From an uncultured Bacilli bacterium (GTDB taxonomy: Bacteria > Bacillota_I > Bacilli_A > RF39 > UBA660): a DNA stretch of 32,000 nucleotides. The notes beneath the pieces are model-generated. The model did no database searches. It saw nothing but the letters and a program-made list of their open reading frames with translations, and was not told the origin of the DNA. This document shows, piece after piece, positions 4,801-23,020 of this stretch; position 1 is the stretch's first letter; every line of letters begins with the position of its first letter. The translations under genes and the position numbers were made by a program. The DNA lies in assembly GCA_947627975.1 (NCBI GenBank), contig CANQYB010000011.1, forward strand, positions 3,762 to 35,761, read 5' to 3'.

Positions 4801-5934
4801 AAAGAAAACCATATATGATAAAAATAAAATTAATAAAATTAATACTATCCAACCATTTATTTTATCCATTTTTTTAGATTTATTACTAACCCCTACAGCA
4901 AAGGTTGCAATTGCTCCTCCAATTAATCCTCCTATATGAGCAGCATTATCTATTCCTGATATTAAAAAGCCTAAAATTAAATTTACAATTATAATTGGAA
5001 TTATTTGGGTTTTTAAAACACTTGATAAATAAACCCGATAGTAGTAACCAAAATATAATAATGAACCTAGTAATCCAAATATAGCTCCACTTGCTCCCGC
5101 CGATATATTATTGGAAAAAATTAAAGACATAAGACTAGCTGTTAAAGCACTTATTAAATATATAAAAATAAATTTAGCCTTTCCTAAAAAGCTTTCAATT
5201 TGTGGACCAATAATATATAAAGCATACATATTTAAAAGAATATGAAATATACCAACATGTAAAAATGAACAAGTTATTAAACGAAATATTTCCCCATTTT
5301 TTACTAAAGGACCATAGTTAGCTCCAAATTTTAATAAAGTTAAAGTATCATTACTTCCATTTCCAAAAATATACATAGCTATAAATAATATAACATTTAT
5401 TGTAATTAAAATTGGTGTTACTACTATTTTTTTCTTTTTAAAAGTATTTTCATATTTTAAATTTTCTTTTTCAGTTTTTTTGTTTATTTCATTAGTTGTT
5501 TTTATTATAAAATCTAAATTATCAACATTTTTATACTTTTCAGTTGTTATCTTAGGAAAACTACTTTTAAGATCTTTATATATATCATTTTCATTATTTA
5601 TAACAATTGATAATATATTTTTATCACTTTTAACATGAACATCTTCGTTTATGTTTAAAAAAATATTTAATGTATTAACTGATAAAGATAAAGTTTTTTT
5701 CTTAACTTGTTTTATGATATTTTTTATCTTAAATATATCAAATTTAAATTGCTCTTCGTTATGAATGTAATTAGAGTTTATTCTAATAATTTTGTATGGA
5801 CCCTCTGTATTTTCCAACCATATTTCATTTTTAGCACCATTTACAACTATTGGAGTATAATTTTCTTTAGTAATAAAATAATGAACTAATTTCATTGTAA
5901 TTTTATCTTTTTCATTTATTAATACATTATTCAT
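4795..5934 (-). CDS. Rhomboid-family intramembrane serine protease (GluP/YqgP-like, with cytoplasmic N-domain)
   Basis: C-terminal multi-TM core with the catalytic GASGAIFGLLG (Ser) and AAHIGGLIGG (His) motifs, plus FLHVGIFHILLNM. Confidence 0.85.
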   Translation of the reverse strand: MNNVLINEKDKITMKLVHYFITKENYTPIVVNGAKNEIWLENTEGPYKIIRINSNYIHNEEQFKFDIFKIKNIIKQVKKKTLSLSVNTLNIFLNINEDVHVKSDKNILSIVINNENDIYKDLKSSFPKITTEKYKNVDNLDFIIKTTNEINKKTEKENLKYENTFKKKKIVVTPILITINVILFIAMYIFGNGSNDTLTLLKFGANYGPLVKNGEIFRLITCSFLHVGIFHILLNMYALYIIGPQIESFLGKAKFIFIYLISALTASLMSLIFSNNISAGASGAIFGLLGSLLYFGYYYRVYLSSVLKTQIIPIIIVNLILGFLISGIDNAAHIGGLIGGAIATFAVGVSNKSKKMDKINGWIVLILLILFLSYMVFFK

Positions 5935-9125: not shown

Positions 9126-10976
9126 TTACATTATTAACTTTCTTAATGCATCTAAAATTACAACCATAGCCCATGTATCTTGTTTGCAATATTCTACTAA
9201 ACCTTTATACTTTATATTATATTCTTCTTTAGAAAAATTATTATAATTAGCATATACTACAATTGCTTCTGTTCCATTTTTAACTTCTAAATTATCATAC
9301 GATAAATCACTGAAAACAGGAAGAGTTTTTTTTATAGAAAATGAACCACTTAAATTATTATTATAATAATTAATACGTGATGCTCTTTTTTCATCGAATC
9401 CAAGATCCATATATATTTTTTTATTGGTACTTACTAACCAAATAAGATCAAACCCTCTATTATAAATTTTCATTAGTTTTTCTTTATATTGTGGAAAAAT
9501 ATTTGCTAATTCTTTTATTCTCCCTTTTTCAAATGGAACATTTTGAGCAAGCAAAGTGCCTTTATTTGGATCTATATATTCTAATAATTTTTTTATTAAT
9601 TCTTCTCTTTCATCATTCATTGTTTTTGCTAAGAAGACATAATTATCTTTATCTTTGTCACAAACTCCAGGAGAGTGCTCTATATGTAATGAAAATTCAA
9701 ATGGTGATTGCATATATGGTTTTTCTCCTTTAAATCTTGGAAGTGGACATGGAAATGTTTCAAAATCTAAATGATATATAGGATATTCAATTGTATTAAT
9801 TAATGCTTTTATTTTTTCTTTATCAATAAATTCTTTATTAAAAATATAACAATCTCTTTGAATTTTATGATTTTCTTTTTCAATCCAACTTTCAGGAATA
9901 TCTAATAAATTTATATAGCCATCATTAATTAAATCAAGACCTTTTATTCTATCGCCATTTTCCATTTTAAATCCAAAGCCATTATTAATATAATTTAAAG
10001 AAGAATTTTTTAAAGGAATACAAGATGAACATATTCGTTTAAAAAATTTACATTCGCTTTTTTTCTTTCTTTCACAATAAGGTCCTAATTTATAAGAATC
10101 AATATTACTTTCCATAATATATTTTCTTAATTTTTTTTCATCTTCTTCAATATATTTTTGATATTCTTTTGTTACATTTGTCAAATCAATAAAAGTAATT
10201 AATTCATTTTTGTTATTATCTATTTTATAAATAGCTTTATCTTTTTCGTATGTGCCATCAAAAACATAATTATGATTTAAAATGGCTAAAAAATATTTTA
10301 TATTTGGAATTTTATTATGGCTTTCTTTATATTCATTTTCAATTATATACCTTTGAACTGCTAAATCATAAACATATTTTCCCGCCTCATGAAATCTATT
10401 AAATAAATTCATTTTATTTTGATTATATTTATCAATTGGCATATCAATATTATTCAATTCATCTTTTAAATAATAAATATTATTAATTTTGGTAAATATT
10501 GATTTTTTAACTCCTTTTATACTACACCCTAATTTTTCAAATTTAGATGATGTTGTTGCCTTAACTTCTATAATATTAATATTGTTTTTTGATTCATTAT
10601 AAATATCAATATAACATTTATATAAAATACCATCCTTACAAAAATCAAAACTTTCTTGATTTTTAGTATCTGTTGCATAAATTGAATTGCCTTTAAAATA
10701 TTTTTCAACAATTTTTCCAGCTTCTAATTCAACTTGCTTATAATATGGAAGCATAGCTTCAAGTTGAATGTCTAATTTGTCTATTAAATCAATTTCTTCA
10801 TTATCATTTATATCAATCATTTCACTATATAGTTCATTAATAATTTCCTCTTTTTCCTTTTTTTGATAATCACTATAAGAAATATCGGCTTCTAAATTTT
10901 CTTTTTTAACTTCTTCTAAACTAATATAACGTGGACATCGAGTATAATTTATAAAATCAGTTTTAGTAATTGCCAT
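9126..10976 (-). CDS. DUF2779-family protein (N-terminal PD-(D/E)xK-like nuclease module, C-terminal RNase-H-like DFET module)
   Basis: The N-terminus TKTDFINYTRCPRYISL and the later IYHLDFETFPCPLPRFKGEKPYMQSPFEFSLH are the DUF2779 signatures as I recall them. A central Cys cluster reads C-x8-C-x6-C-x2-C. Confidence 0.7.
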   Translation of the reverse strand: MAITKTDFINYTRCPRYISLEEVKKENLEADISYSDYQKKEKEEIINELYSEMIDINDNEEIDLIDKLDIQLEAMLPYYKQVELEAGKIVEKYFKGNSIYATDTKNQESFDFCKDGILYKCYIDIYNESKNNINIIEVKATTSSKFEKLGCSIKGVKKSIFTKINNIYYLKDELNNIDMPIDKYNQNKMNLFNRFHEAGKYVYDLAVQRYIIENEYKESHNKIPNIKYFLAILNHNYVFDGTYEKDKAIYKIDNNKNELITFIDLTNVTKEYQKYIEEDEKKLRKYIMESNIDSYKLGPYCERKKKSECKFFKRICSSCIPLKNSSLNYINNGFGFKMENGDRIKGLDLINDGYINLLDIPESWIEKENHKIQRDCYIFNKEFIDKEKIKALINTIEYPIYHLDFETFPCPLPRFKGEKPYMQSPFEFSLHIEHSPGVCDKDKDNYVFLAKTMNDEREELIKKLLEYIDPNKGTLLAQNVPFEKGRIKELANIFPQYKEKLMKIYNRGFDLIWLVSTNKKIYMDLGFDEKRASRINYYNNNLSGSFSIKKTLPVFSDLSYDNLEVKNGTEAIVVYANYNNFSKEEYNIKYKGLVEYCKQDTWAMVVILDALRKLIM

Positions 10977-11849: not shown

Positions 11850-13016
11850 TTATTCAATAATTTCTGTAACAGAACCTGCTCCAACAGTACGTCCACCCTC
11901 ACGAATTGAGAATTTAGTACCATTTTCTAAAGCAACATTGGAAATAAGTTCAACTGTCATATCTACATTATCACCAGGCATAACCATTTCAACTCCAGCA
12001 GGAAGTTCAATAACACCTGTAACATCTGTAGTTCTAAAATAAAATTGTGGTCTGTAATTTGAGAAGAATGGAGTATGACGTCCGCCTTCTTCTTTAGATA
12101 ATACATAAACTTTAGCTTTAAATTTATGATGTGGAGTAACACTTCCAGGTTTAGCAAGTACTTGTCCACGTTCTACTTGATCACGAGAAATTCCACGTAG
12201 TAATGCACCAGCATTATCTCCTGCTTCAGCATAATCCAATTGTTTTCTAAACATTTCAATACCAGTAACAACTGTTTTTTGTGTATCTCTTAAACCAACA
12301 ATTTCAACTTCATCATTAAGATTTAATCTACCACGTTCAACACGTCCAGTAACAACTGTTCCACGTCCTGAAATTGTAAATACATCTTCAATACTCATTA
12401 AGAATGGTTTGTCAGTATCTCTTTGTGGAGTATCAATATAACTATCAACAGCTGCCATTAAATCTTTAATAGATTGAACATCACTTTCATTACCTTCTAA
12501 TGCTTTTAATGCAGATCCTTTAATAATTGGACAATCAGCATCAAATTCATATTCACCAAGTAAATCTCTTATTTCCATTTCAACTAATTCTAATAATTCT
12601 GGATCATCAACTTGATCACACTTATTCATGTAAACAACAATTTTAGGTACTCCAACTTGACGAGCAAGTAAAATATGTTCACGAGTTTGAGGCATTGGAC
12701 CATCAGCGGCTGAAACAACTAAAATTGCTCCATCCATTTGTGCAGCACCAGTAATCATGTTTTTAACATAATCAGCATGTCCTGGGCAATCAACATGAGC
12801 ATAATGACGAGCTTCAGTTTCATATTCAACGTGAGCTGTATTAATTGTTATACCTCTTTCCCTTTCTTCTGGAGCACTGTCGATATCAGCATAATCAACA
12901 AATTTTCCAAAATATTTAGTAATTGCTGCAGTTAATGTTGTTTTACCATGGTCAACGTGACCAATAGTACCAATATTAACATGTGGCTTTGAACGATCAA
13001 ATTTTTCTCTTGCCAT
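11850..13016 (-). CDS. tuf: Elongation factor Tu
   Basis: Unambiguous: [22 protein letters not shown] and SALKALEG, full length 388 aa. Confidence 0.98.
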
Positions 13017-17612: not shown

Positions 17613-17645
17613 TTAAAAAAAGATAAAGTTAGTTTTTATCTTTTT
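17613..17645 (-). terminator. Rho-independent terminator closing the ATPase/VWA operon
   Basis: The minus strand reads AAAGATAAA-AACTAAC-TTTATCTTT followed by a T-run, 17 nt after the stop at 17662. Confidence 0.6.
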
Positions 17646-17661
17646 AGTTATCATCTAATTA

Positions 17662-19083
17662 TTATTTTTTTATACCTTTTGATTTTTCTTCATTTGTAAT
17701 ACAAAACAATTTATTTAATTGTTCTTCATTTATATAAATCACTTTGCCACCAGGAGGATTAATTTTTCTATTTCCAAAAACTATCCAAATTGCATTTATA
17801 ACTTTAGTAGGCATATCAGCACATCCATCCGTAAAAATAATTTTGTTTTCTACTCTATTAGAAAAAGCATTAATTGCCACATTAAAATCAGTACCACCTC
17901 GACCAACAAATTTCATTTTTTCAATATCGTTTTTATTTCGAATATCATTAAAACCATAAAATTTAGTGTCAAAACAGCCTACTTTAACTTTAGAACTTTT
18001 TAAAATATTTAAACATTCCATTAAAAAATTTCTTAATAAAATATCATTTATAGAGCCACTTGTATCTAGTAAAATTTCTGTTTCTGGCTCTGGAACATCT
18101 TCAATATAAGGACTAATTATTCCATCTTCTAAAGTAGGATTTTTAAATGACCAATCAATATCAATATTCACAGCTTCTTTTAGTAATCTTGTCCAATCAA
18201 TTAAGGGTTTTGATTTATCTATATTATTTATAGAAAAATATTCACTATTAGTTGTACTACCTGCTTTTGAAAATTGTTCTCTTAATGTTTTTTTTAATTC
18301 TTCCAAACGATCTTTTCTTTCTTTTCGCATTTTATCAAAAACATCTTTTTCTTTCATTTTTCCAAATTTTTCTATTTCTTCATTTATTTTTTCATCTTTT
18401 TCACTATTATCATTTTCCATTTGTTTTAATGCGTCTTTCCAAATTTTGTGCGTATTATTAGCATGTTCATTAGAAAATTTATTTCCCAGTTTTTTCTTGT
18501 CATTTTGATCATTAGAATTTTGAGATTGATTATTTTTTTGGTCATTTGAGTTATTATCTGAATTTTTAGAATTCTCATTTTCATTATCCGAATTTTGCAA
18601 TTGTGAACTACTTTGGTCACTCGATTCATCAGTAGAATTCTGAGAGTTTGAACTATTATCAGATTTTTGTTGATTTTGATCTTCTTGTTTTTCTTTCATA
18701 AGTTTATCGTAAATTTCTTCGGCACTAAACTTACTTGCTTCTGGCATATCAACAACTCCTGGAATAAATGGTAATCCATCTTTTTTTAGTTGAGCATTAA
18801 TAACTGCATCAGTAGCTATATTAAATAATTCATGTTCTTTTCCTTTGCTTCTTTTTATATGATCTAAAGCAATATGACTTATTTCATGTGCAAAACAAAA
18901 AGTTTGTTCATCTTCACTTAAATTATATAAAAATTCTGGATTATAATAAATTCTTTTCCCATCAGTACATAATGGAGCATCCCCTAGTTGATGTGGAATA
19001 AATTTTGTATTTGCTATAATATTACCAAAATCCTTATATTTTACTAATACTCTATTTATTATTTCTTTTTCAAGTGTATTCAT
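17662..19083 (-). CDS. HExxH metallopeptidase-like domain + low-complexity linker + VWA-like domain protein (DUF2201_N/DUF2201 architecture)
   Basis: AHEISH (HExxH) lies at 18874..18888 within CFAHEISHIALDH...NIATDAVIN. A Q/N/S/D-rich linker follows. The C-terminal VWA-like domain has the MIDAS-type ILLDTSGS (18052..18066) and GGTDF. I prefer the ATG at 19083 (AGGTGA RBS). An alternative GTG at 19092 overlaps the upstream stop. Confidence 0.8.
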   Translation of the reverse strand: MNTLEKEIINRVLVKYKDFGNIIANTKFIPHQLGDAPLCTDGKRIYYNPEFLYNLSEDEQTFCFAHEISHIALDHIKRSKGKEHELFNIATDAVINAQLKKDGLPFIPGVVDMPEASKFSAEEIYDKLMKEKQEDQNQQKSDNSSNSQNSTDESSDQSSSQLQNSDNENENSKNSDNNSNDQKNNQSQNSNDQNDKKKLGNKFSNEHANNTHKIWKDALKQMENDNSEKDEKINEEIEKFGKMKEKDVFDKMRKERKDRLEELKKTLREQFSKAGSTTNSEYFSINNIDKSKPLIDWTRLLKEAVNIDIDWSFKNPTLEDGIISPYIEDVPEPETEILLDTSGSINDILLRNFLMECLNILKSSKVKVGCFDTKFYGFNDIRNKNDIEKMKFVGRGGTDFNVAINAFSNRVENKIIFTDGCADMPTKVINAIWIVFGNRKINPPGGKVIYINEEQLNKLFCITNEEKSKGIKK

Positions 19084-19088
19084 GTGTA

Positions 19089-19499
19089 TCACCTAATATG
19101 CGCTACTAAAGAATAAATTTCTTCATTTATTAAATTCTTATCAATTTTCTTACATGTAATAATAATTTGACAATTATTAGGCAAATCTAAAGTTCCAATT
19201 TTATGATATTTTATTATATCCATAAATTTAATTTGTTCTTTAATTGAAATATCAGTTATATTTTCAATAATTAAATAGTTACTAATATCATTTTCTCTCT
19301 TTTTTACATTTAAATACCAACTTGGTGGCATAAAAGTACGATTATTAAAATAACCATTTAAATTACTGAGATCAATATCAGCTTTAATAATTGTACCAAT
19401 ATCTTTAAAAATATTTTCAGGTAAATCTTCAACTAAAATGGGAATTTCTTTAACTTTTAAATATTCGCTGATTAAAGATAATTTATCTTTGTTTATCAT
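19089..19499 (-). CDS. Small P-loop-less AAA+-like protein, paralogous to the core of the upstream ATPase
   Basis: MPPSWYLNV...YLIIENITDISIKEQ...DLPNNCQIIITCKK...IYSLVAHI aligns by eye with APPWYQRLV...ILFLDELTNASLNMQ...ELPKNCRVVAAGNE...LFNRFAHV of the 628-aa ATPase. There is no GxxxxGK[ST] and Walker B DE is replaced by EN. A 4-nt ATGA overlap joins it to the upstream gene. Confidence 0.6.
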   Translation of the reverse strand: MINKDKLSLISEYLKVKEIPILVEDLPENIFKDIGTIIKADIDLSNLNGYFNNRTFMPPSWYLNVKKRENDISNYLIIENITDISIKEQIKFMDIIKYHKIGTLDLPNNCQIIITCKKIDKNLINEEIYSLVAHIR

Positions 19500-21382
19500 A
19501 TTCTTGCTCCTTTCTTTGATTCTGACATTCTAAATTCCGCAATTTTTTCTAATCTTTTTTCATCATCACGACACCACAAAGTATCAAATAAAGCAAGGAA
19601 TTCCGGGTCTAAATTTGCAACAAAGTTTCTAATTATCTTAACATTTTTTTCATCAACAAATGATAATCCAACAACTGTAGCATGTTTTTCACTGATATCC
19701 ATTTCTAAATTAGATTCATTATAATTATTATTTATAACATCTTCTATAGTTATAATTTTTTTACTGCAAAACTCTACAAAATCGCTAGTTAATTCATTTC
19801 CAACTAATGATCTTAACATTTCTGGATTTTTAGTTTTATATAAAATTTTAGAAGCCATTTCCCATTTTCTAGGATCAGCATTTGGTGTTTCACCATTATA
19901 CTCGCTGCGTAAAGCATTTTCTCTTTTATAGGAAATAAAAGCTAAAATTGAAGGATGAATTTTAGGTAGGTTTTCATCTTCCTTATAAGTTAAACTTTTA
20001 TAATCTTTTGCTGGAGTCACAGCCCAATTAAGCCATGATTCAACTGTTGTTTCTATATAAACATGTGCAAAACGATTAAATAAAGGTTCAGCTATTTCAG
20101 ATGCTGCTTTACTATCGTTTATTTCATTTCCAGCAGCTACTACCCTACAATTTTTAGGCAGTTCAAAAAAATCGTTCACTTTACGATCTAATGCAATACT
20201 ATATCCATATTTTTGCATATTTAATGAAGCATTTGTAAGTTCATCTAAAAATAATATATGTATTTTATTAGGCTCTTTTTCACATTTATCAACTAATCTT
20301 TGATACCAAGGCGGAGCAATATATTCAACTTTTTTTTCATCATTATTTTTTAAAGCCATTCCAATTAATAATTCGGGAGATAAAGTTCCTATTGAAACAA
20401 TTTCACAATCAGGATCTATTTGTCTTACTCTAGCACTTTTTCCATCACCTGATTTACCATGGATAAAAACTGCAACTCCACTTTCGACAGATCCTTTAAT
20501 AATATCTTCTTCACTTACCATATCAAATGTAAAATTATAAGGATTTGGTATTTTATAATTCTCTTTATTTTCCAAATTTGTTTTTTTATAAGTATTATTT
20601 AAATTTAAATCTTTAGTAAGATATATATCCATATAATTATACATATTAGTTAATGAAAAATTTCCTGTATAATTACTTACTTGATTAAATTGAACACCTG
20701 CACATATTATGTTCTTACAAACGGCTATATTATCTTTCTTACTGGATAGCCATTTAACTGGTTCATACTTTATCCAAACATAATCTCCATCTTTATAACT
20801 ATTTCCATCAGAAAGTTTAAAATAATCACCATCAAAAGAAGAATTAACTTTAACTCTAACAAAGCTTTCCCCATTATATTCATATCTAATTAATTGTTCT
20901 GGTTTAAAATCTGTATTATAAACATTATATTTTTGAGTATCAATAGTTGGCCCTGGCAAAGTTGAAATACTTAATTTACCTTTTTTAAATAGTCTTTCTA
21001 ATTCTCTTTGATTTTTAGCGACACTTTGAGGATATTCTCCATATTCTATTTCATCATTAATTCCTCTCACTCTGTTCGAGGAGATTCTTGATATTTCTGA
21101 GAACGGTAAAGCTGGGCGACACCCAACATAGCGTAAATAAACATCATACCAGATCTTATCACCATCATCATCAACGACGCGGACATCATTAGATCCATCA
21201 TCAGTTTTAGTCCAATACCATCCAGTTCTATTTTTTAAATGATTTCCTTCATTTGTATAATTATCAGATACATAGCCACCTAAACAAATTGCAAAATCTG
21301 ATATTGCAGCTCTAGTACCATATTTTTCAAATATATCTAAACTATCAACTTGATCCATTTCTAATAAAGTTAATTTACTCAT
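19496..21382 (-). CDS. AAA+ ATPase (MoxR/AAA_5-like core, residues ~300-445) with a ~300-aa N-terminal non-ATPase module and a helical C-terminal domain
   Basis: Walker A HGKSGDGKS (20435..20458), Walker B ILFLDE, sensor-1 VVAAGN and Arg in LFNRF. The lid region carries IHPSILAFI...DPRKWEMAS. The N-module has the WYWTKT...VGCRPAL and YGEYPQ...EPVKWL motifs. Confidence 0.8.
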   Translation of the reverse strand: MSKLTLLEMDQVDSLDIFEKYGTRAAISDFAICLGGYVSDNYTNEGNHLKNRTGWYWTKTDDGSNDVRVVDDDGDKIWYDVYLRYVGCRPALPFSEISRISSNRVRGINDEIEYGEYPQSVAKNQRELERLFKKGKLSISTLPGPTIDTQKYNVYNTDFKPEQLIRYEYNGESFVRVKVNSSFDGDYFKLSDGNSYKDGDYVWIKYEPVKWLSSKKDNIAVCKNIICAGVQFNQVSNYTGNFSLTNMYNYMDIYLTKDLNLNNTYKKTNLENKENYKIPNPYNFTFDMVSEEDIIKGSVESGVAVFIHGKSGDGKSARVRQIDPDCEIVSIGTLSPELLIGMALKNNDEKKVEYIAPPWYQRLVDKCEKEPNKIHILFLDELTNASLNMQKYGYSIALDRKVNDFFELPKNCRVVAAGNEINDSKAASEIAEPLFNRFAHVYIETTVESWLNWAVTPAKDYKSLTYKEDENLPKIHPSILAFISYKRENALRSEYNGETPNADPRKWEMASKILYKTKNPEMLRSLVGNELTSDFVEFCSKKIITIEDVINNNYNESNLEMDISEKHATVVGLSFVDEKNVKIIRNFVANLDPEFLALFDTLWCRDDEKRLEKIAEFRMSESKKGARI

Positions 21383-21396
21383 AACTTATCACCATT

Positions 21397-22153
21397 TTAA
21401 TTATAACATTTAAAAATACTAATACAAATTTTATTATTACTTTTTGTAAAGTAAGGGTAAACTATTTTTTTAAAATTATTTTCTTTAGTAATTTTAATAT
21501 GATTATAAAAAGTATTATTTCTAATATTGATGTATTCTTCATAAACTTTATCTTTATATTTAATTTATTTAAAGTTTTAATATGTTTTTTCATCCTAATT
21601 TTCGATGACGCTCATAATTTCAGTTAAAGTAATATTATAGCCTAAAAAATCAATACCATTGGATACTTTACCAATTTAAGTTTTTTGATTTAACTCTAAA
21701 TTTAAAACATTTTTTAATTTTTGCTGTATTTCTCTTTTACAAAATTGTAAATATTTTTTATACTACAAATTATATATTTTTAACTTTTTTTTATAAATAT
21801 TTCAATATTGTTTAAATAAAATAAAGCAAACCATTGACTACTTTGGTTCCCTAGAGGAAAACCTATTTTCATCTGTTTAGGTTGTTCTTTAATTAATTTT
21901 TTAATAAACCACATTTCATCTTCAGTAAAGTTAATTTTTTTTAATAAATTAATTAAAATTTCATGATTTATACTATTAAAATATTTTTTAATGTTACACT
22001 TTAAAAAATAAATATTATTATTTTTTTGTTTTAAAAATTTTCTTTAATCTTTTTATTCCAAAAGAAGTTCCTTTGTTTTTACGACAAGCAAACATTATCA
22101 TATATTAATTTTTTTCAATTTTATTTTTTAAAACTTAATAAAAAGTTTTTCAA
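21397..22153 (-). pseudogene. Decayed DGR-type reverse transcriptase
   Basis: The longest open stretch reads NNIYFLKCNIKKYFNSINHEILINLLKK...KIGFPLGNQSSQWFALFYLNNIEIFIKK. The LGxxxSQ motif is at 21834..21854. Downstream fragments read REIQQKLKNVLNLELNQKT*IGKVSNGIDFLGYNI (GIDFLGY at 21637..21657, in-frame TAA at 21676..21678). The N-terminal fragment ACRKNKGTSFGIKRLKK is in another frame, with a shift in the run of seven T (A7 on the minus strand) at 22021..22027. About 85 aa of the fingers region and the YxDD box are missing. Confidence 0.7.
21400..21428 (-). promoter_or_regulatory. Candidate extended -10 promoter for the ATPase/VWA operon
   Basis: The minus strand reads TTTGTA-N17-TATAAT with TGT immediately upstream (TGTTATAAT), about 18 nt before the GGTGAT RBS of the ATPase gene. 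It is embedded in the tail of the RT relic. Confidence 0.3.
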
Positions 22154-22187
22154 CTTAATATCCTAACTTTTTTTTTAAATCTTTTAT

Positions 22188-22446
22188 CATCACTTTTTTT
22201 CCATGCTGAAATTAAATTGAATTTTATTATTAGAATTACTTAAACTTATAAAATTTGCTTGCAATAAAAATTCTAAAGTAACTAAACAATAATTTTGCAT
22301 GCGATTAACAAATACTCCCTAAATTTTTTGGGAGATTTTTCTATAATTGCAATAACATATGCTCCTAATTTTTTAACAACTGTTATAAGCATTAAATTAT
22401 TAGAATTAAAAGGTATTTTCGATATTACATCTACATCACTATCAAT
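22188..22446 (-). pseudogene. Decayed Avd-like four-helix-bundle accessory gene (tentative)
   Basis: An open 54-codon stretch ...LMLITVVKKLGAYVIAIIEKSPKKFREYLLIACKIIV* continues after a frameshift as VTLEFLLQANFI.... The pattern (y..i....PKkfr..L...i) resembles Avd and 23S-IVS four-helix-bundle proteins. It lies just upstream of the RT relic, as in avd-RT cassettes. Confidence 0.4.
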
Positions 22447-22666
22447 TTTTTACATCTCTTAATACTTTTTCATAATCTCCAATATATTCAATTTCTTCAG
22501 GAATAATTATTTCCTTAATTAATTTATTTTTTTATAACTATAAGTTTATTATCTTCAATTATTAAATTTTCGTCCATAAAAAGTCCCCTTTTGATGACGC
22601 TTGTTATACAAATTAAATGTTATTTTGTCAAATATAACATAATATAATAAAATAGGAGGCTTGTAC

Positions 22667-23020
22667 ATGAATCCATTTCCCCCAAATATTGATCCACAAA
22701 CTTTTTCTATAACAGCCGTTCTTGTTGGAATAGCCTCTATTGGCGATTATACTGCCAATGAATTAGATTCTATATCTAACTGGCTATTTTTAGTTGCCCA
22801 GTATATAGAAACTGTTTCCGTTCAACAAACATTAATAGAAGGTAGAATGGATAAAAATAACATAAATATTAATAGTAAAAAATATAAATCAGGAGGAAGT
22901 CCATATACAAGTTATCATAATAAAAGTAATCAATATACAAGAGATGAATTAGAATTATTAATTGATGCAGTTTCTAAAATGCAAAGAGAATTAGAAAATT
23001 TAAAAAGAAATAGAAATTAA
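22667..23020 (+). CDS. Hypothetical small protein (hydrophobic N-half, coiled-coil-like C-terminus)
   Basis: An AGGAGG RBS lies 7 nt before the ATG at 22667; the track's TTG at 22661 is too close to the RBS. The family is not recognised with confidence. Confidence 0.55.
   Translation: MNPFPPNIDPQTFSITAVLVGIASIGDYTANELDSISNWLFLVAQYIETVSVQQTLIEGRMDKNNININSKKYKSGGSPYTSYHNKSNQYTRDELELLIDAVSKMQRELENLKRNRN

What the first reader, a model, noticed from the sequence alone, without database searches (positions are those of the whole stretch)
17662..21382. Self-contained AAA+ / degenerate-AAA / HExxH-VWA three-gene operon: candidate uncharacterised NTPase-driven system
The three co-directional genes look like one transcription unit. 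Gene 1 and gene 2 share an ATGA overlap at 19496..19499, and only 5 nt separate the gene 2 stop from the gene 3 ATG. A candidate extended -10 promoter (21400..21428) precedes them and a clean terminator (17613..17645) follows. Gene 1 has a ~300-aa non-ATPase N-module plus a MoxR/AAA_5-like core (Walker A GKSGDGKS, Walker B ILFLDE, sensor-1 AAGN, NRF Arg). Gene 2 is a 136-aa protein that looks like a P-loop-less copy of that core. Gene 3 has an HExxH domain (AHEISH), a ~65-aa Q/N/S/D-rich linker and a VWA-like domain with a DTSGS MIDAS motif. MoxR-type ATPase + VWA pairs are established chaperone/activation modules (RavA-ViaA, CbbQ-CbbO, NorQ-NorD). They have also been proposed computationally as cores of biological-conflict systems. 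To my knowledge the DUF2201-type peptidase-VWA partner has no experimentally defined role. I also cannot match the combination of a sensor-like N-module and a split-off inactive AAA subunit to any named system. The operon sits in an accessory insert beside a dead retroelement, which fits a defence or conflict function.
Basis: partly seen in the sequence, partly recalled or inferred. Interest (0 to 1): 0.8.

Follow-up and report, generated by a model that had tools for sequence, protein, structure and literature searches.

The report
Retroelement-diversified ATPase–protease module, diversifier now dead
The three genes are real, but they are the target module of a diversity-generating retroelement: in close relatives it rewrites a 27-codon patch at the front of the ATPase gene, and in this genome that retroelement has decayed and left the patch frozen.

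Summary
Three translationally coupled genes on the minus strand encode:
- g1, a 290-aa N-terminal domain fused to a MoxR-like AAA+ ATPase;
- g2, a 136-aa copy of that ATPase's alpha/beta core without a P-loop;
- g3, an HExxH peptidase fused to a VWA/MIDAS domain (DUF2201_N + DUF2201).

The trio is not self-contained. The "dead retroelement" upstream (21400-22477) is the remnant of a diversity-generating retroelement (DGR: avd, template repeat TR, reverse transcriptase).
- In 18 related genomes a 77-100 nt TR matches g1 codons ~67-93. Of 235 TR/VR mismatches, 205 lie at TR adenines (p = 2e-69).
- A ~96%-identical relative (L087) has the intact cassette avd-TR-RT-g1-g2-g3.
- The window has lost the TR, the first ~87 RT codons and the YMDD motif. 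Its g1, g2 and g3 remain intact, and g1 is under purifying selection (21 synonymous vs 9 non-synonymous changes).
- All 11 nucleotide differences between the two variable regions (VRs) sit at TR-adenine positions.

The closest known kind is the set of computationally predicted DGR-diversified MoxR-vWA conflict systems of cyanobacteria and gammaproteobacteria. This one differs in four ways: the variable domain sits on the ATPase, the VWA partner carries a zincin peptidase (phage N4 gp24/gp25-like pair), the third subunit is an inactive AAA copy, and the hosts are gut Bacilli MAGs. I rate it a new variant of a known kind. Function is inferred, not shown.

The parts
19496..21382 (-). g1: 628-aa protein. 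N-terminal variable-ligand domain (res 1-~255), linker, MoxR-like AAA+ core (res 291-445), helical C-terminal region (446-628).
   Evidence: ORF. More than 2,600 homologues, many full length at ~50% identity. PHROG 1297 at 7e-49. Foldseek top hits NorQ/CbbQ2. Invariant Walker A/B, sensor-1 and Arg. No TM segment or signal peptide by hydropathy.
21106..21185 (-). Frozen DGR variable region (VR) inside g1 (codons ~67-93, VRVVDDDGDKIWYDVYLRYVGCRPAL). Hypervariable core is codons 71-86 (21125-21172). G+C-rich edges GTCCGCGTCGTT and GTCGCCCAGCTTTAC (IMH-like).
   Evidence: Matches the TR of close relative L087 (947-1026) with 12 mismatches, 11 at TR adenines. All 11 differences from L087's own VR are at TR-A positions. 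Column entropy 2.95 bits vs 1.31 for the whole protein. Modelled as a beta-hairpin plus loop, pLDDT 76-88.
20618..21382 (-). g1 N-terminal domain (res 1-255), the VR-bearing ligand-binding module. Only distantly DUF6273-like.
   Evidence: AlphaFold pLDDT 85, pTM 0.84. No significant Foldseek match in PDB or BFVD. DUF6273 hit in 7 of 59 relatives, best E 2e-4. 1,460 representative clusters carry it, either alone or fused to AAA_5, ankyrin, pentapeptide or LRR_5.
20048..20512 (-). g1 AAA+ alpha/beta subdomain (Walker A GKSGDGKS, Walker B ILFLDE, sensor-1 AAGN, R437).
19089..19499 (-). g2: 136-aa degenerate, P-loop-less copy of the g1 AAA+ alpha/beta subdomain. No lid domain.
   Evidence: hhalign probability 96.6%, E 6e-10, with a gap at the P-loop and the Walker B DE lost. 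Present after g1 in 72 of 77 loci. Absent from N4-like phage loci.
17662..19083 (-). g3: 473-aa HExxH zincin peptidase (DUF2201_N, ~18511-18978), low-complexity Q/N/S/D linker (~18493-18672), VWA/MIDAS domain (DUF2201, ~17731-18075).
   Evidence: Pfam. PHROG 1314 at 1e-65. Conserved HExxH...H and DxSxS...T...D. Weak similarity to the minimal metallopeptidase MJ1213.
21400..22131 (-). Decayed DGR reverse transcriptase (residues ~102-352 only). Retains LGNQSSQWF. Lacks the N-terminus and the YMDD segment. Contains multiple stops and frameshifts.
   Evidence: tblastn and HMM fragments. Alignment to the intact L087 RT shows 14-, 32- and 20-nt deletions plus 1-nt indels: 13.4% differing columns, against 0.5-1.8% in g1 outside the VR.
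22153..22477 (-). Decayed avd (DGR accessory four-helix-bundle gene) with a 128-nt internal deletion and stops.
   Evidence: The intact L087 orthologue hits NF033474 DivGenRetAVD at 7e-8 and Pfam bAvd at 1e-3.
22133..22135 (-). Deletion junction. 567 nt present in L087 (909-1475: the TR and the first ~87 RT codons) are missing here.
   Evidence: blastn of L087 against the window.
21400..21431 (-). Promoter-like TTGTAT-N17-TATAAT, with TG one base upstream of the -10 hexamer (the extended -10 reads TGTTATAAT), just upstream of g1. Unproven.
   Evidence: Read from the sequence. The RT-g1 spacer has 1 difference in 54 nt from L087. Motif frequency is not above shuffles.
17614..17645 (-). AT-rich hairpin plus U-run after g3. 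Plausible weak intrinsic terminator.
   Evidence: Fold of -7.2 kcal/mol, z -2.06.

Best explanation
The locus is the target and effector half of a diversity-generating retroelement cassette, avd-TR-RT-g1-g2-g3.

Shown:
- In relatives the DGR copies a ~80-nt template repeat into codons ~67-93 of g1, randomising positions that are adenine in the template. This rewrites a hairpin and loop in the N-terminal domain of a MoxR-like AAA+ ATPase.
- In this genome the TR, avd and RT have been destroyed by deletions. The variable patch is fixed in one 'ON' sequence, while g1, g2 and g3 remain intact.

Inferred mechanism:
- g1 forms an AAA+ ring that displays several copies of the variable domain in the cytoplasm as a programmable binding surface.
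- g2, an ATP-blind copy of the ring subunit core, joins or caps the assembly as a structural or regulatory subunit.
- g3 docks on the ring through its VWA/MIDAS domain, as NorD does on NorQ and CbbO on CbbQ.
- Ligand capture by the variable domain is coupled through ATP hydrolysis to the zincin peptidase of g3. Either the captured protein is handed to the peptidase, or the peptidase is switched on.

The most likely biological role is recognition of changing foreign (phage or mobile-element) proteins, that is, a conflict or immunity function. This last step is the least certain.
For: DGR link (shown):
- RT with the DGR-type SQ motif and YMDD, plus an Avd-like gene, lie directly upstream of g1. 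Among 59 loci with enough upstream sequence, 19 have an intact RT and 10 have remnants.
- TR/VR pairs occur in 18 loci, with 205 of 235 mismatches at TR adenines against an A content of 0.32 (p = 2e-69).
- TR and VR differ in a fixed way at the 3' end: CCAGATTCAC vs CCAGCTTTAC.
- Relative L087/L088 is ~96% identical at the nucleotide level and carries the intact cassette. The window's VR differs from it at 13.1% of positions, against 0.5-1.8% elsewhere in g1, and only at TR-A positions.
- One TR serves two g1 paralogues in L015.

Decay in the window (shown).

Trio maintained:
- No disruptions in 3.7 kb. 21 synonymous vs 9 non-synonymous codon changes in g1 outside the VR.
- The identical frozen allele occurs on 6 contigs, and the three places shown come from three different samples.

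MoxR-VWA logic:
- Foldseek top hits are NorQ, NorQD complexes and CbbQ2.
- MIDAS and HExxH residues are conserved.
- The homologous adjacent pair is found in N4-like phages.

Specificity-module behaviour: tandem g1 paralogues keep 92-98% identical ATPase halves but only 43-89% identical N-domains (43-77% in most pairs), and share one g2-g3.

Cytoplasmic location: no TM segment or signal peptide.

Precedent: DGR-diversified sensors in MoxR-vWA systems (PMC7159879; PMC10907252).
Against: - No experiment exists on any member. ATPase activity, ring formation, g2 incorporation, g3 docking and proteolysis are all inferred.
- No PADLOC hit.
- Neighbourhoods are housekeeping, not defence islands.
- About half of the loci with enough upstream sequence show no DGR nearby.
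- The N-domain model finds no C-type-lectin or any other significant structural match, so the usual DGR scaffold is not confirmed.
- In the window the diversifier is dead, so any 'adaptive' property is lost here.
- An intact DGR elsewhere in the genome acting in trans cannot be excluded from 32 kb.
Confidence: 0.6

Rival explanations
1. Programmable proteolysis or remodelling with a non-defence purpose. The variable domain is a substrate adaptor that lets the AAA+/peptidase machine capture endogenous proteins, or proteins delivered from other bacteria. Its role would be regulation, detoxification or turnover rather than anti-phage immunity.
For: The anatomy is the same as in the best explanation. 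Contexts are housekeeping, with no defence or mobile genes adjacent. No PADLOC match. The trio is retained after DGR loss, which suits a fixed, useful specificity.
Against: Continuous hypermutation and divergent N-domain paralogues fit moving targets better than fixed endogenous ones. Distribution is patchy, at 270 of ~185,000 species genomes.
Confidence: 0.2
2. Phage-derived module. The ATPase/VWA-peptidase pair works as in N4-like phages (gp24/gp25, function unknown) and belongs to a prophage or satellite. The DGR would then serve the mobile element, for example in superinfection exclusion or host takeover.
For: PHROG 1297 and 1314 hits. The adjacent pair occurs in Schitoviridae and some jumbo phages. 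One IMG/VR contig carries the full cassette. DGRs are common in gut phages (PMC10743442).
Against: Only 1 full-length relative in 2.9 million viral contigs, against 270 in genomes. The N-domain has no hit in GenBank phages. No phage structural genes flank the cassette in the window, L084-L086 or L092. Phage pairs lack both g2 and the N-domain.
Confidence: 0.08
3. Housekeeping MoxR-VWA chaperone that matures or inserts a cofactor into one metalloenzyme, as NorQD, CbbQO and RavA-ViaA do.
For: Best structural matches are NorQ and CbbQ. MIDAS is conserved. Neighbours are housekeeping genes.
Against: No conserved client gene sits next to the trio in 77 loci. The ATPase is the target of a hypermutation device. 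Tandem paralogues have divergent N-domains. The partner carries a peptidase domain. The phyletic pattern is very patchy.
Confidence: 0.05
4. One reading: a self-contained three-gene NTPase system, with the dead retroelement an unrelated neighbour.
For: In the window itself there is no TR and no intact RT. About half of related loci have no DGR nearby.
Against: The window's VR is an adenine-mutagenised copy of the TR that its ~96%-identical relative still carries. RT and avd are always in the same position and orientation next to g1.
Confidence: 0.03
5. In this genome the operon is a relic on its way to decay after losing its diversifier.
For: The adjacent DGR is heavily degraded. Some relatives carry stops or a deletion in the VR.
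Against: All three ORFs are intact with every conserved motif. g1 shows 21 synonymous vs 9 non-synonymous changes. The identical allele occurs in several samples.
Confidence: 0.04

Closest known systems
DGR-associated MoxR-vWA 'ternary' conflict systems (VMAP and iSTAND types) predicted by Kaur et al. 2020 (PMC7159879) and Dore et al. 2024 (PMC10907252)
   Same: A MoxR-like AAA+ ATPase, a vWA/MIDAS protein and a third component, linked to a DGR that hypermutates a ligand-binding domain proposed to act as a sensor. All are computational predictions without experiments.
   Different: - There, the variable FGS/C-type-lectin domain is C-terminal on the vWA protein. Here it is N-terminal on the ATPase, with the VR near the 5' end.
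- The third component here is a P-loop-less AAA copy, not a VMAP (no Pfam hit).
- The vWA protein here carries an N-terminal zincin peptidase (DUF2201_N).
- The hosts here are uncultured, low-G+C gut Bacilli/'Tenericutes' MAGs, not the cyanobacteria, actinobacteria or Chromatiales for which a link to multicellularity was argued.
Phage N4 gp24 (AAA ATPase) / gp25 (DUF2201 VWA-metallopeptidase) pair of Schitoviridae
   Same: Homologous adjacent genes in the same order (PHROG 1297 at 7e-49, PHROG 1314 at 1e-65; family HMM E 1e-19 to 1e-35).
   Different: Phage ATPases are ~340 aa and lack the N-terminal variable domain. They have no g2 homologue and no DGR. Identity is ~25-30%. Their function is also unknown.
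NorQ-NorD, CbbQ-CbbO and RavA-ViaA MoxR-VWA chaperone pairs
   Same: Best structural matches of the g1 ATPase. The partner has a conserved MIDAS. They serve as the model for how g3 could dock on the ring.
   Different: These pairs serve one fixed client enzyme. They have no peptidase domain, no variable domain and no inactive AAA subunit, and their sequence identity to g1 is 13-15%.
Tentaclins and DUF6273 targets of gut-phage DGRs (PMC10743442)
   Same: A rare arrangement with the VR near the 5' end of the target, in an N-terminal globular domain where the VR forms a beta-hairpin. The g1 N-domain family shows weak DUF6273 hits.
   Different: Tentaclins are extracellular phage receptor-binding proteins with Ig-like domains. 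Here the domain is fused to a cytoplasmic ATPase. DUF6273 similarity is below Pfam's threshold, and no lectin-fold match was obtained.

Membership tests
Diversity-generating retroelement (DGR) cassette | Reverse transcriptase of the DGR type (SQ motif in place of group II QG..SP; YxDD) | tested here: met
   Relatives have ~350-aa RTs with LGNQSSQWF and YMDD and RVT_1 at 7.5e-19. The window has only a degraded remnant that keeps LGNQSSQWF and lacks YMDD.
Diversity-generating retroelement (DGR) cassette | TR/VR repeat pair whose mismatches fall at TR adenines | tested here: met
   18 pairs, with 205 of 235 mismatches at A (p = 2e-69). The window VR against the L087 TR has 11 of 12 mismatches at A. 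No TR remains in the window.
Diversity-generating retroelement (DGR) cassette | Accessory variability determinant (Avd) | tested here: met
   A ~194-206-aa protein upstream of the TR. NF033474 DivGenRetAVD at 7e-8 over the full model but below the curated cutoff; Pfam bAvd at 1e-3. Remnant in the window.
Diversity-generating retroelement (DGR) cassette | VR lies in a C-type-lectin (or Ig-like) scaffold | tested here: inconclusive
Diversity-generating retroelement (DGR) cassette | Ongoing mutagenic retrohoming (activity) | not testable with these tools
   Indirect evidence only. Loci sharing the same TR carry different VRs (L032, L036, L039; L028, L051, L081). Two metagenome pattern scans found nothing.
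MoxR-type AAA+ ATPase | Walker A/B, sensor-1, Arg; MoxR-like fold (AAA_5 / helix-2-insert clade) | tested here: met
   The motifs are invariant. Foldseek top hits are NorQ and CbbQ2. AAA_5 hits 7 of 25 homologues, best 3.7e-8, but not the window protein itself.
MoxR-VWA pair | Adjacent gene for a VWA protein with an intact MIDAS | tested here: met
   DUF2201 VWA-like domain, with DxSxS...T...D conserved in 68 sequences. Adjacent in 69 of 77 loci.
VMAP ternary system (Kaur et al. 2020) | Third gene encodes a VMAP protein (vWA-MoxR-associated, N-terminal peptidase, cyclase or EAD plus VMAP-C) | tested here: not met
   The third gene g2 is a 136-aa degenerate AAA core with no Pfam hit. No further conserved neighbour was found.
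Phage N4 gp24/gp25-like pair | Homology of both proteins, and adjacency | tested here: met
   PHROG 1297 and 1314. Annotated N4-like loci. Family HMMs. The N-domain and g2 are absent from the phages.
Known anti-phage defence systems (PADLOC-DB v2) | Match of any component to a defence-system model | tested here: not met
   No hit for g1 or g2. g3 has only a spurious ZorA hit at E 0.05 on its low-complexity linker.

The most novel reading that the evidence does not exclude
A compact, cytoplasmic, DGR-programmable recognition machine in unicellular gut Bacilli. A hypermutable binding head is mounted directly on a MoxR AAA+ motor, which drives a VWA-tethered zincin protease, giving an antibody-like 'generate-and-select' sensor-effector against phage or other intruding proteins. 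It would also have a built-in ON/OFF switch, because most template repeats encode in-frame stop codons that only adenine mutagenesis can remove. If true, retroelement-based adaptive sensing is not tied to multicellular bacteria. The natural pair of near-identical strains with a live and a dead diversifier would make it directly testable.
Probability: 0.3. Interest if true: 0.9.

Novelty: new variant of a known kind. Interest (0 to 1): 0.75.

Why it matters
DGR-diversified NTPase systems are among the few candidates for anticipatory, antibody-like immunity in bacteria. None has been tested experimentally, and they have been tied to multicellular lineages.

This family puts the variable head directly on the motor protein. 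It needs only about 5.7 kb (avd-TR-RT plus three genes). It occurs in hundreds of gut Bacilli species, and it exists in nature with live and dead diversifiers in nearly identical strains. That makes it a small, tractable model for three questions:
- what DGR-variable cytoplasmic sensors bind;
- what MoxR-VWA-peptidase pairs (including the conserved but unexplained N4 gp24/gp25) actually do;
- whether DGRs can also act as ON/OFF switches through template-encoded stop codons.

For annotation, it shows that a 'pseudogenised retroelement' beside an operon can be the key to that operon's function.

Tried and rejected
- Searching the window for a TR copy of the VR found nothing. The reason is a 567-nt deletion.
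- PADLOC gave no hit. NCBIfam gave nothing meaningful for g1-g3.
- PDB sequence searches gave nothing for g1, only a weak minimal-metallopeptidase hit for g3, and nothing meaningful for the N-domain profile.
- Foldseek of the N-domain against PDB and BFVD gave no significant match, so I do not claim a C-type-lectin fold.
- tblastn of the N-domain against GenBank phages found no match.
- Two VR-allele pattern scans of JGI metagenomes gave no matches.
- An alternative genetic code as the cause of 'split' g1 genes in relatives is rejected. All three stop types occur inside VRs, they correspond to stops in the TR, and other genes are intact under table 11.
- A prophage context for the one IMG/VR contig is unclear. 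PHROG hits on its neighbours were an ABC transporter, an endolysin-like protein and unknowns, with no structural genes.
- A g2 equivalent between gp24 and gp25 of phage JWAlpha was not found.

Full report
**1. What is in the window**

The window is about 22% G+C, and almost all genes lie on the minus strand. The finding's three ORFs are there:
- g1, 19496-21382, 628 aa;
- g2, 19089-19499, 136 aa;
- g3, 17662-19083 from its ATG, 473 aa.

g1 and g2 overlap in ATGA, preceded by AAAGGAG. g2's TGA is followed by 5 nt and the g3 ATG, preceded by AGGTGA.

Pfam assigns g3 to DUF2201_N (putative metallopeptidase, 1e-30) plus the DUF2201 VWA-like domain (4e-14). It gives g1 only a weak Sigma54_activat hit, and g2 nothing. 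PADLOC and NCBIfam give nothing useful.

PHROGs recognises g1 residues 292-618 as phrog_1297 'ATPase' (7e-49). It recognises g3 as phrog_1314 (1e-65); that family is labelled 'HNH endonuclease', but the phage records themselves describe it as DUF2201 metallopeptidase/VWA.

The proposed extended -10 (TGTTATAAT, 21400-21408) exists, but promoter-like motifs are not enriched over shuffles. The 'terminator' is an AT-only 11-bp hairpin with a U-run: -7.2 kcal/mol, z = -2.06.

**2. The trio is a conserved family**

g1 has more than 2,600 homologues, many of them full length at ~50% identity. A scan of one genome per species found 270 relatives. These are almost all uncultured gut Bacilli, 'Tenericutes' or Clostridia MAGs from human, mouse, rabbit and Hadza samples.

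In 77 fetched loci, g1 is followed by a g2 homologue in 72 and by a g3 homologue in 69, in the same order and usually with overlapping or near-touching stops and starts.

Conserved catalytic residues:
- g1: Walker A (G314 K315 S316), Walker B (E381), sensor-1 (N419) and R437 are invariant.
- g3: HExxH...H and the MIDAS residues DxSxS...T...D are >=95% conserved in 68 sequences.

None of the three proteins has a hydrophobic segment or a signal-peptide-like N-terminus, so all are probably cytoplasmic.

**3. Gene 2**

- BLASTP aligns g2 56-135 with g1 354-441 (E 2e-4).
- Most g2 homologues hit g1 by phmmer at 1e-5 to 5e-10.
- Profile-profile alignment of 73 g2 sequences against the g1 family gives 96.6% probability (E 6e-10). 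It covers g2 8-135 against g1 293-441, which is the entire alpha/beta subdomain. There is a six-residue gap exactly where g1 has GxxGxGKS, and the Walker B DE is lost.

g2 has no lid domain. N4-like phages, which carry the ATPase and the VWA-peptidase, have no g2.

**4. The ATPase and its partner**

The AlphaFold model of g1 (pLDDT 73.5) finds as best PDB matches NorQ, NorQ-NorD complexes and CbbQ2. After those come sigma-54 activators, McrB and dynein. AAA_5 is detected in 7 of 25 homologues. So the motor is MoxR-like, and its partner is a MIDAS-bearing VWA protein, as in NorQD, CbbQO and RavA-ViaA.

The same adjacent pair is the conserved gp24/gp25 of N4-like phages at ~25-30% identity.

**5. 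The neighbouring 'dead retroelement' is the key**

Clustering the flanking ORFs of the 77 loci gave only two recurrent neighbours, both upstream and co-directional:
- a ~353-aa reverse transcriptase (25 loci), carrying the DGR-type LGNQSSQWF motif and YMDD;
- a ~194-aa four-helix-bundle Avd-like protein (21 loci).

About 340 nt of non-coding DNA lie between them. The Avd of the closest relative matches NCBIfam 'diversity-generating retroelement protein Avd' (7e-8, full model length, below the curated cutoff) and Pfam bAvd. The RT matches RVT_1.

In that spacer lies a 77-100 nt repeat of g1 codons ~67-93. Over 18 such pairs, 205 of 235 mismatches are at template adenines. Adenine makes up 32% of the templates, giving a binomial p of 2e-69, and 43% of template adenines are substituted. 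The 3' ends differ in a fixed way, TR CCAGATTCAC against VR CCAGCTTTAC, as expected for IMH*/IMH. This is the signature of mutagenic retrohoming, so g1 is a DGR variable protein with its VR near the 5' end.

Supporting observations:
- In the family alignment, VR core positions 71-86 have mean entropy 2.95 bits against 1.31 overall, and they supply 12 of the 25 most variable columns. G74 and R84, whose template codons lack adenine, are conserved.
- Loci that share the same TR carry different VRs: L032, L036 and L039; and L028, L051 and L081.
- One TR matches two g1 paralogues in L015.

**6. The window itself**

The region 21400-22477 contains the following:
- fragments of avd (HMM positions 57-193);
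- fragments of the RT (positions ~102-350), with stops and frameshifts, and no YMDD.

A ~96%-identical relative (L087/L088; g1 97% identical at the protein level) carries the intact cassette: avd 259-879, TR 947-1026, RT 1215-2243, then g1, g2 and g3.

Alignment shows what the window has lost:
- 128 nt inside avd;
- 567 nt containing the TR and the first ~87 RT codons;
- a further 14, 32 (including YMDD) and 20 nt, plus single-base indels, in the RT.

Differing columns by segment:

| Segment | Differing columns |
|---|---|
| RT remnant | 13.4% |
| g1 before the VR | 0.5% |
| g1 after the VR | 1.8% |
| g2 | 1.0% |
| VR | 13.1% |

Eight of the 17 amino-acid differences in g1 fall in residues 71-83. 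All 11 VR nucleotide differences are at TR-adenine positions. The window VR differs from the L087 TR at 12 positions, 11 of them adenines.

So the window's VR was written by this DGR before the DGR died. Since then the trio has been kept:
- there are no disruptions, and g1 outside the VR shows 21 synonymous against 9 non-synonymous codon changes;
- the identical frozen allele is found on six contigs (the three places shown come from three different samples), and all places shown carry the dead configuration.

Among 59 loci with at least 2.1 kb upstream, 19 have an intact RT, 10 have remnants and 30 have none. DGR loss is therefore common in this family. Even RT-less g1 genes keep a G+C-rich VR: 0.44 against 0.31 for the rest of the gene, with CGN Arg codons.

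**7. The N-terminal domain**

Modelled alone with 65 sequences, it folds confidently (pLDDT 85, pTM 0.84). The VR forms strands 67-70 and 76-79 plus the loop leading to 91-93.

Foldseek finds no significant match in PDB or BFVD; the best hits are at E 0.1-0.3, one of them a phage DUF6273 protein. A profile search of PDB sequences finds nothing meaningful.

Pfam DUF6273 hits appear in a minority of relatives, below threshold. DUF6273 N-terminal domains are reported as lectin-like, 5'-VR DGR targets in gut-phage 'tentaclins' (PMC10743442). I therefore treat the lectin scaffold as unconfirmed.

The domain family is large. There are 1,460 representative clusters, 961 of them below 1e-10. It occurs alone (~260-420 aa) or fused to AAA_5, ankyrin, pentapeptide or LRR_5 regions. 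It was not found in GenBank phages.

**8. Context**

The cassette sits among housekeeping genes:
- in the window, between phosphoketolase and PGM/PMM-rpsL-rpsG-fusA;
- in L086, between rpsF-ssb-rpsR and rplI-dnaB;
- other sites are seen.

Only one full-length relative occurs in 2.9 million IMG/VR contigs, and its neighbours are not clearly viral. So this is neither a defence-island nor a prophage context. The chromosomal position does vary between genomes.

**9. Mechanism**

Shown:
- DGR-mediated rewriting of the g1 N-domain in relatives;
- death of the DGR in the window;
- conservation of the ATPase, MIDAS and HExxH sites;
- g2 as an ATP-blind paralogue of the core.

Inferred:
- g1 rings present multiple variable heads in the cytoplasm;
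- g3 docks by its MIDAS as NorD and CbbO do;
- g2 is a structural or regulatory ring partner;
- ligand capture is coupled by ATP hydrolysis to proteolysis by the g3 zincin domain.

The behaviour of tandem paralogues supports the 'exchangeable specificity head on a constant motor' view. Their ATPase halves are 92-98% identical, their N-domains only 43-89% (43-77% in most pairs), and they share one g2-g3. A role in conflict with phages or other invaders is the most economical reading of continuous diversification. It parallels proposals for DGR-diversified MoxR-vWA and STAND systems (PMC7159879, PMC10907252), but nothing here tests it.

**10. Comparison and novelty**

The kind of system, a DGR-diversified sensor in a MoxR-vWA conflict system, is already described computationally. 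This family differs in four respects:
- where the variable domain sits (on the ATPase, N-terminal, 5' VR);
- the vWA partner (a zincin-VWA of the N4 gp25 type);
- the third subunit (an inactive AAA copy instead of a VMAP);
- the hosts (gut Bacilli MAGs rather than multicellular cyanobacteria, actinobacteria or Chromatiales).

The large DGR surveys I could read do not mention ATPase-fused or vWA-linked gut targets in their main text. Wu et al. note only a Midasin-like AAA match for one class of unclassified CPR targets, and three N-terminal VRs. I rate it a new variant of a known kind.

**11. Side observation**

Eleven of 18 TRs, and the L087 TR, contain TAA, TAG or TGA in the VR reading frame. 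In VRs these positions are usually converted to sense codons; in the window, TAG became TGG (Trp78). In five species-representative genomes, however, a stop remains inside the VR and splits g1.

[quoted passage not shown] It suggests that this DGR could also toggle g1 OFF and ON.

Noticed in passing
L008, L009, L012, L017, L018, L019, L027, L037, L040, L068 and L087 TRs; window 21149-21151 (Trp78 codon TGG): Most template repeats carry in-frame TAA, TAG or TGA in the VR reading frame. Only adenine mutagenesis converts them to sense codons (Trp, Leu, Ser and others). Five species-representative genomes (L008, L009, L018, L019, L027) keep a stop inside the VR, which splits g1. This is a possible DGR-driven OFF/ON switch, and it is contrary to the usual AAY 'no stop possible' design.
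   Followed up: partly
L025, L029, L038, L053, L058 (tandem g1 copies); L068 (four near-identical copies): Tandem g1 paralogues have ATPase halves that are 92-98% identical but N-domains only 43-89% identical (43-77% in most pairs), and they share a single g2-g3. This points to gene conversion of the motor or diversification of the head. The L068 copies may be an amplification or an assembly artefact.
   Followed up: partly
L015 11852-13223: A second g1 paralogue downstream of g3 carries a VR (12092-12165) that matches the same TR at 88%. One DGR therefore serves two ATPase targets.
   Followed up: partly
L021 ~5050-5250: The RT and avd are intact, but g1 has an in-frame deletion of the VR segment (…DNDARSSNGVRG…). 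The target has been lost while the diversifier persists.
   Followed up: no
window 18193-18705 (g3 linker) and g3 homologues: The Q/N/S/D/K-rich low-complexity linker of g3 varies strongly in length. g3 ranges from 400 to 558 aa across the family, and there are 18 gap columns even against the ~96%-identical relative.
   Followed up: no
window 22661-23020 (+): A 119-aa ORF on the opposite strand, between the avd remnant and the phosphoketolase gene. It has no Pfam hit. It is called as a 117-aa gene on the other contigs of this lineage (L089-L091).
   Followed up: no
P0007, P0021, P0004 (g1 homologues): Variant architectures exist: duplicated ATPase modules (P0007, P0021, ~930-1,020 aa) and a duplicated N-domain (P0004, 914 aa).
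   Followed up: no
L001 (Klebsiella phage KpCHEMY26), L002 (Achromobacter phage JWAlpha): RefSeq and PHROGs label the N4 gp25-type DUF2201 protein 'HNH endonuclease', while the notes on the same records say metallopeptidase/VWA. This is a likely propagated mis-annotation.
   Followed up: partly
window 9126-10976 (-): A 616-aa protein with a C-terminal DUF2779 domain lies among housekeeping genes. It is unrelated to the finding.
   Followed up: no
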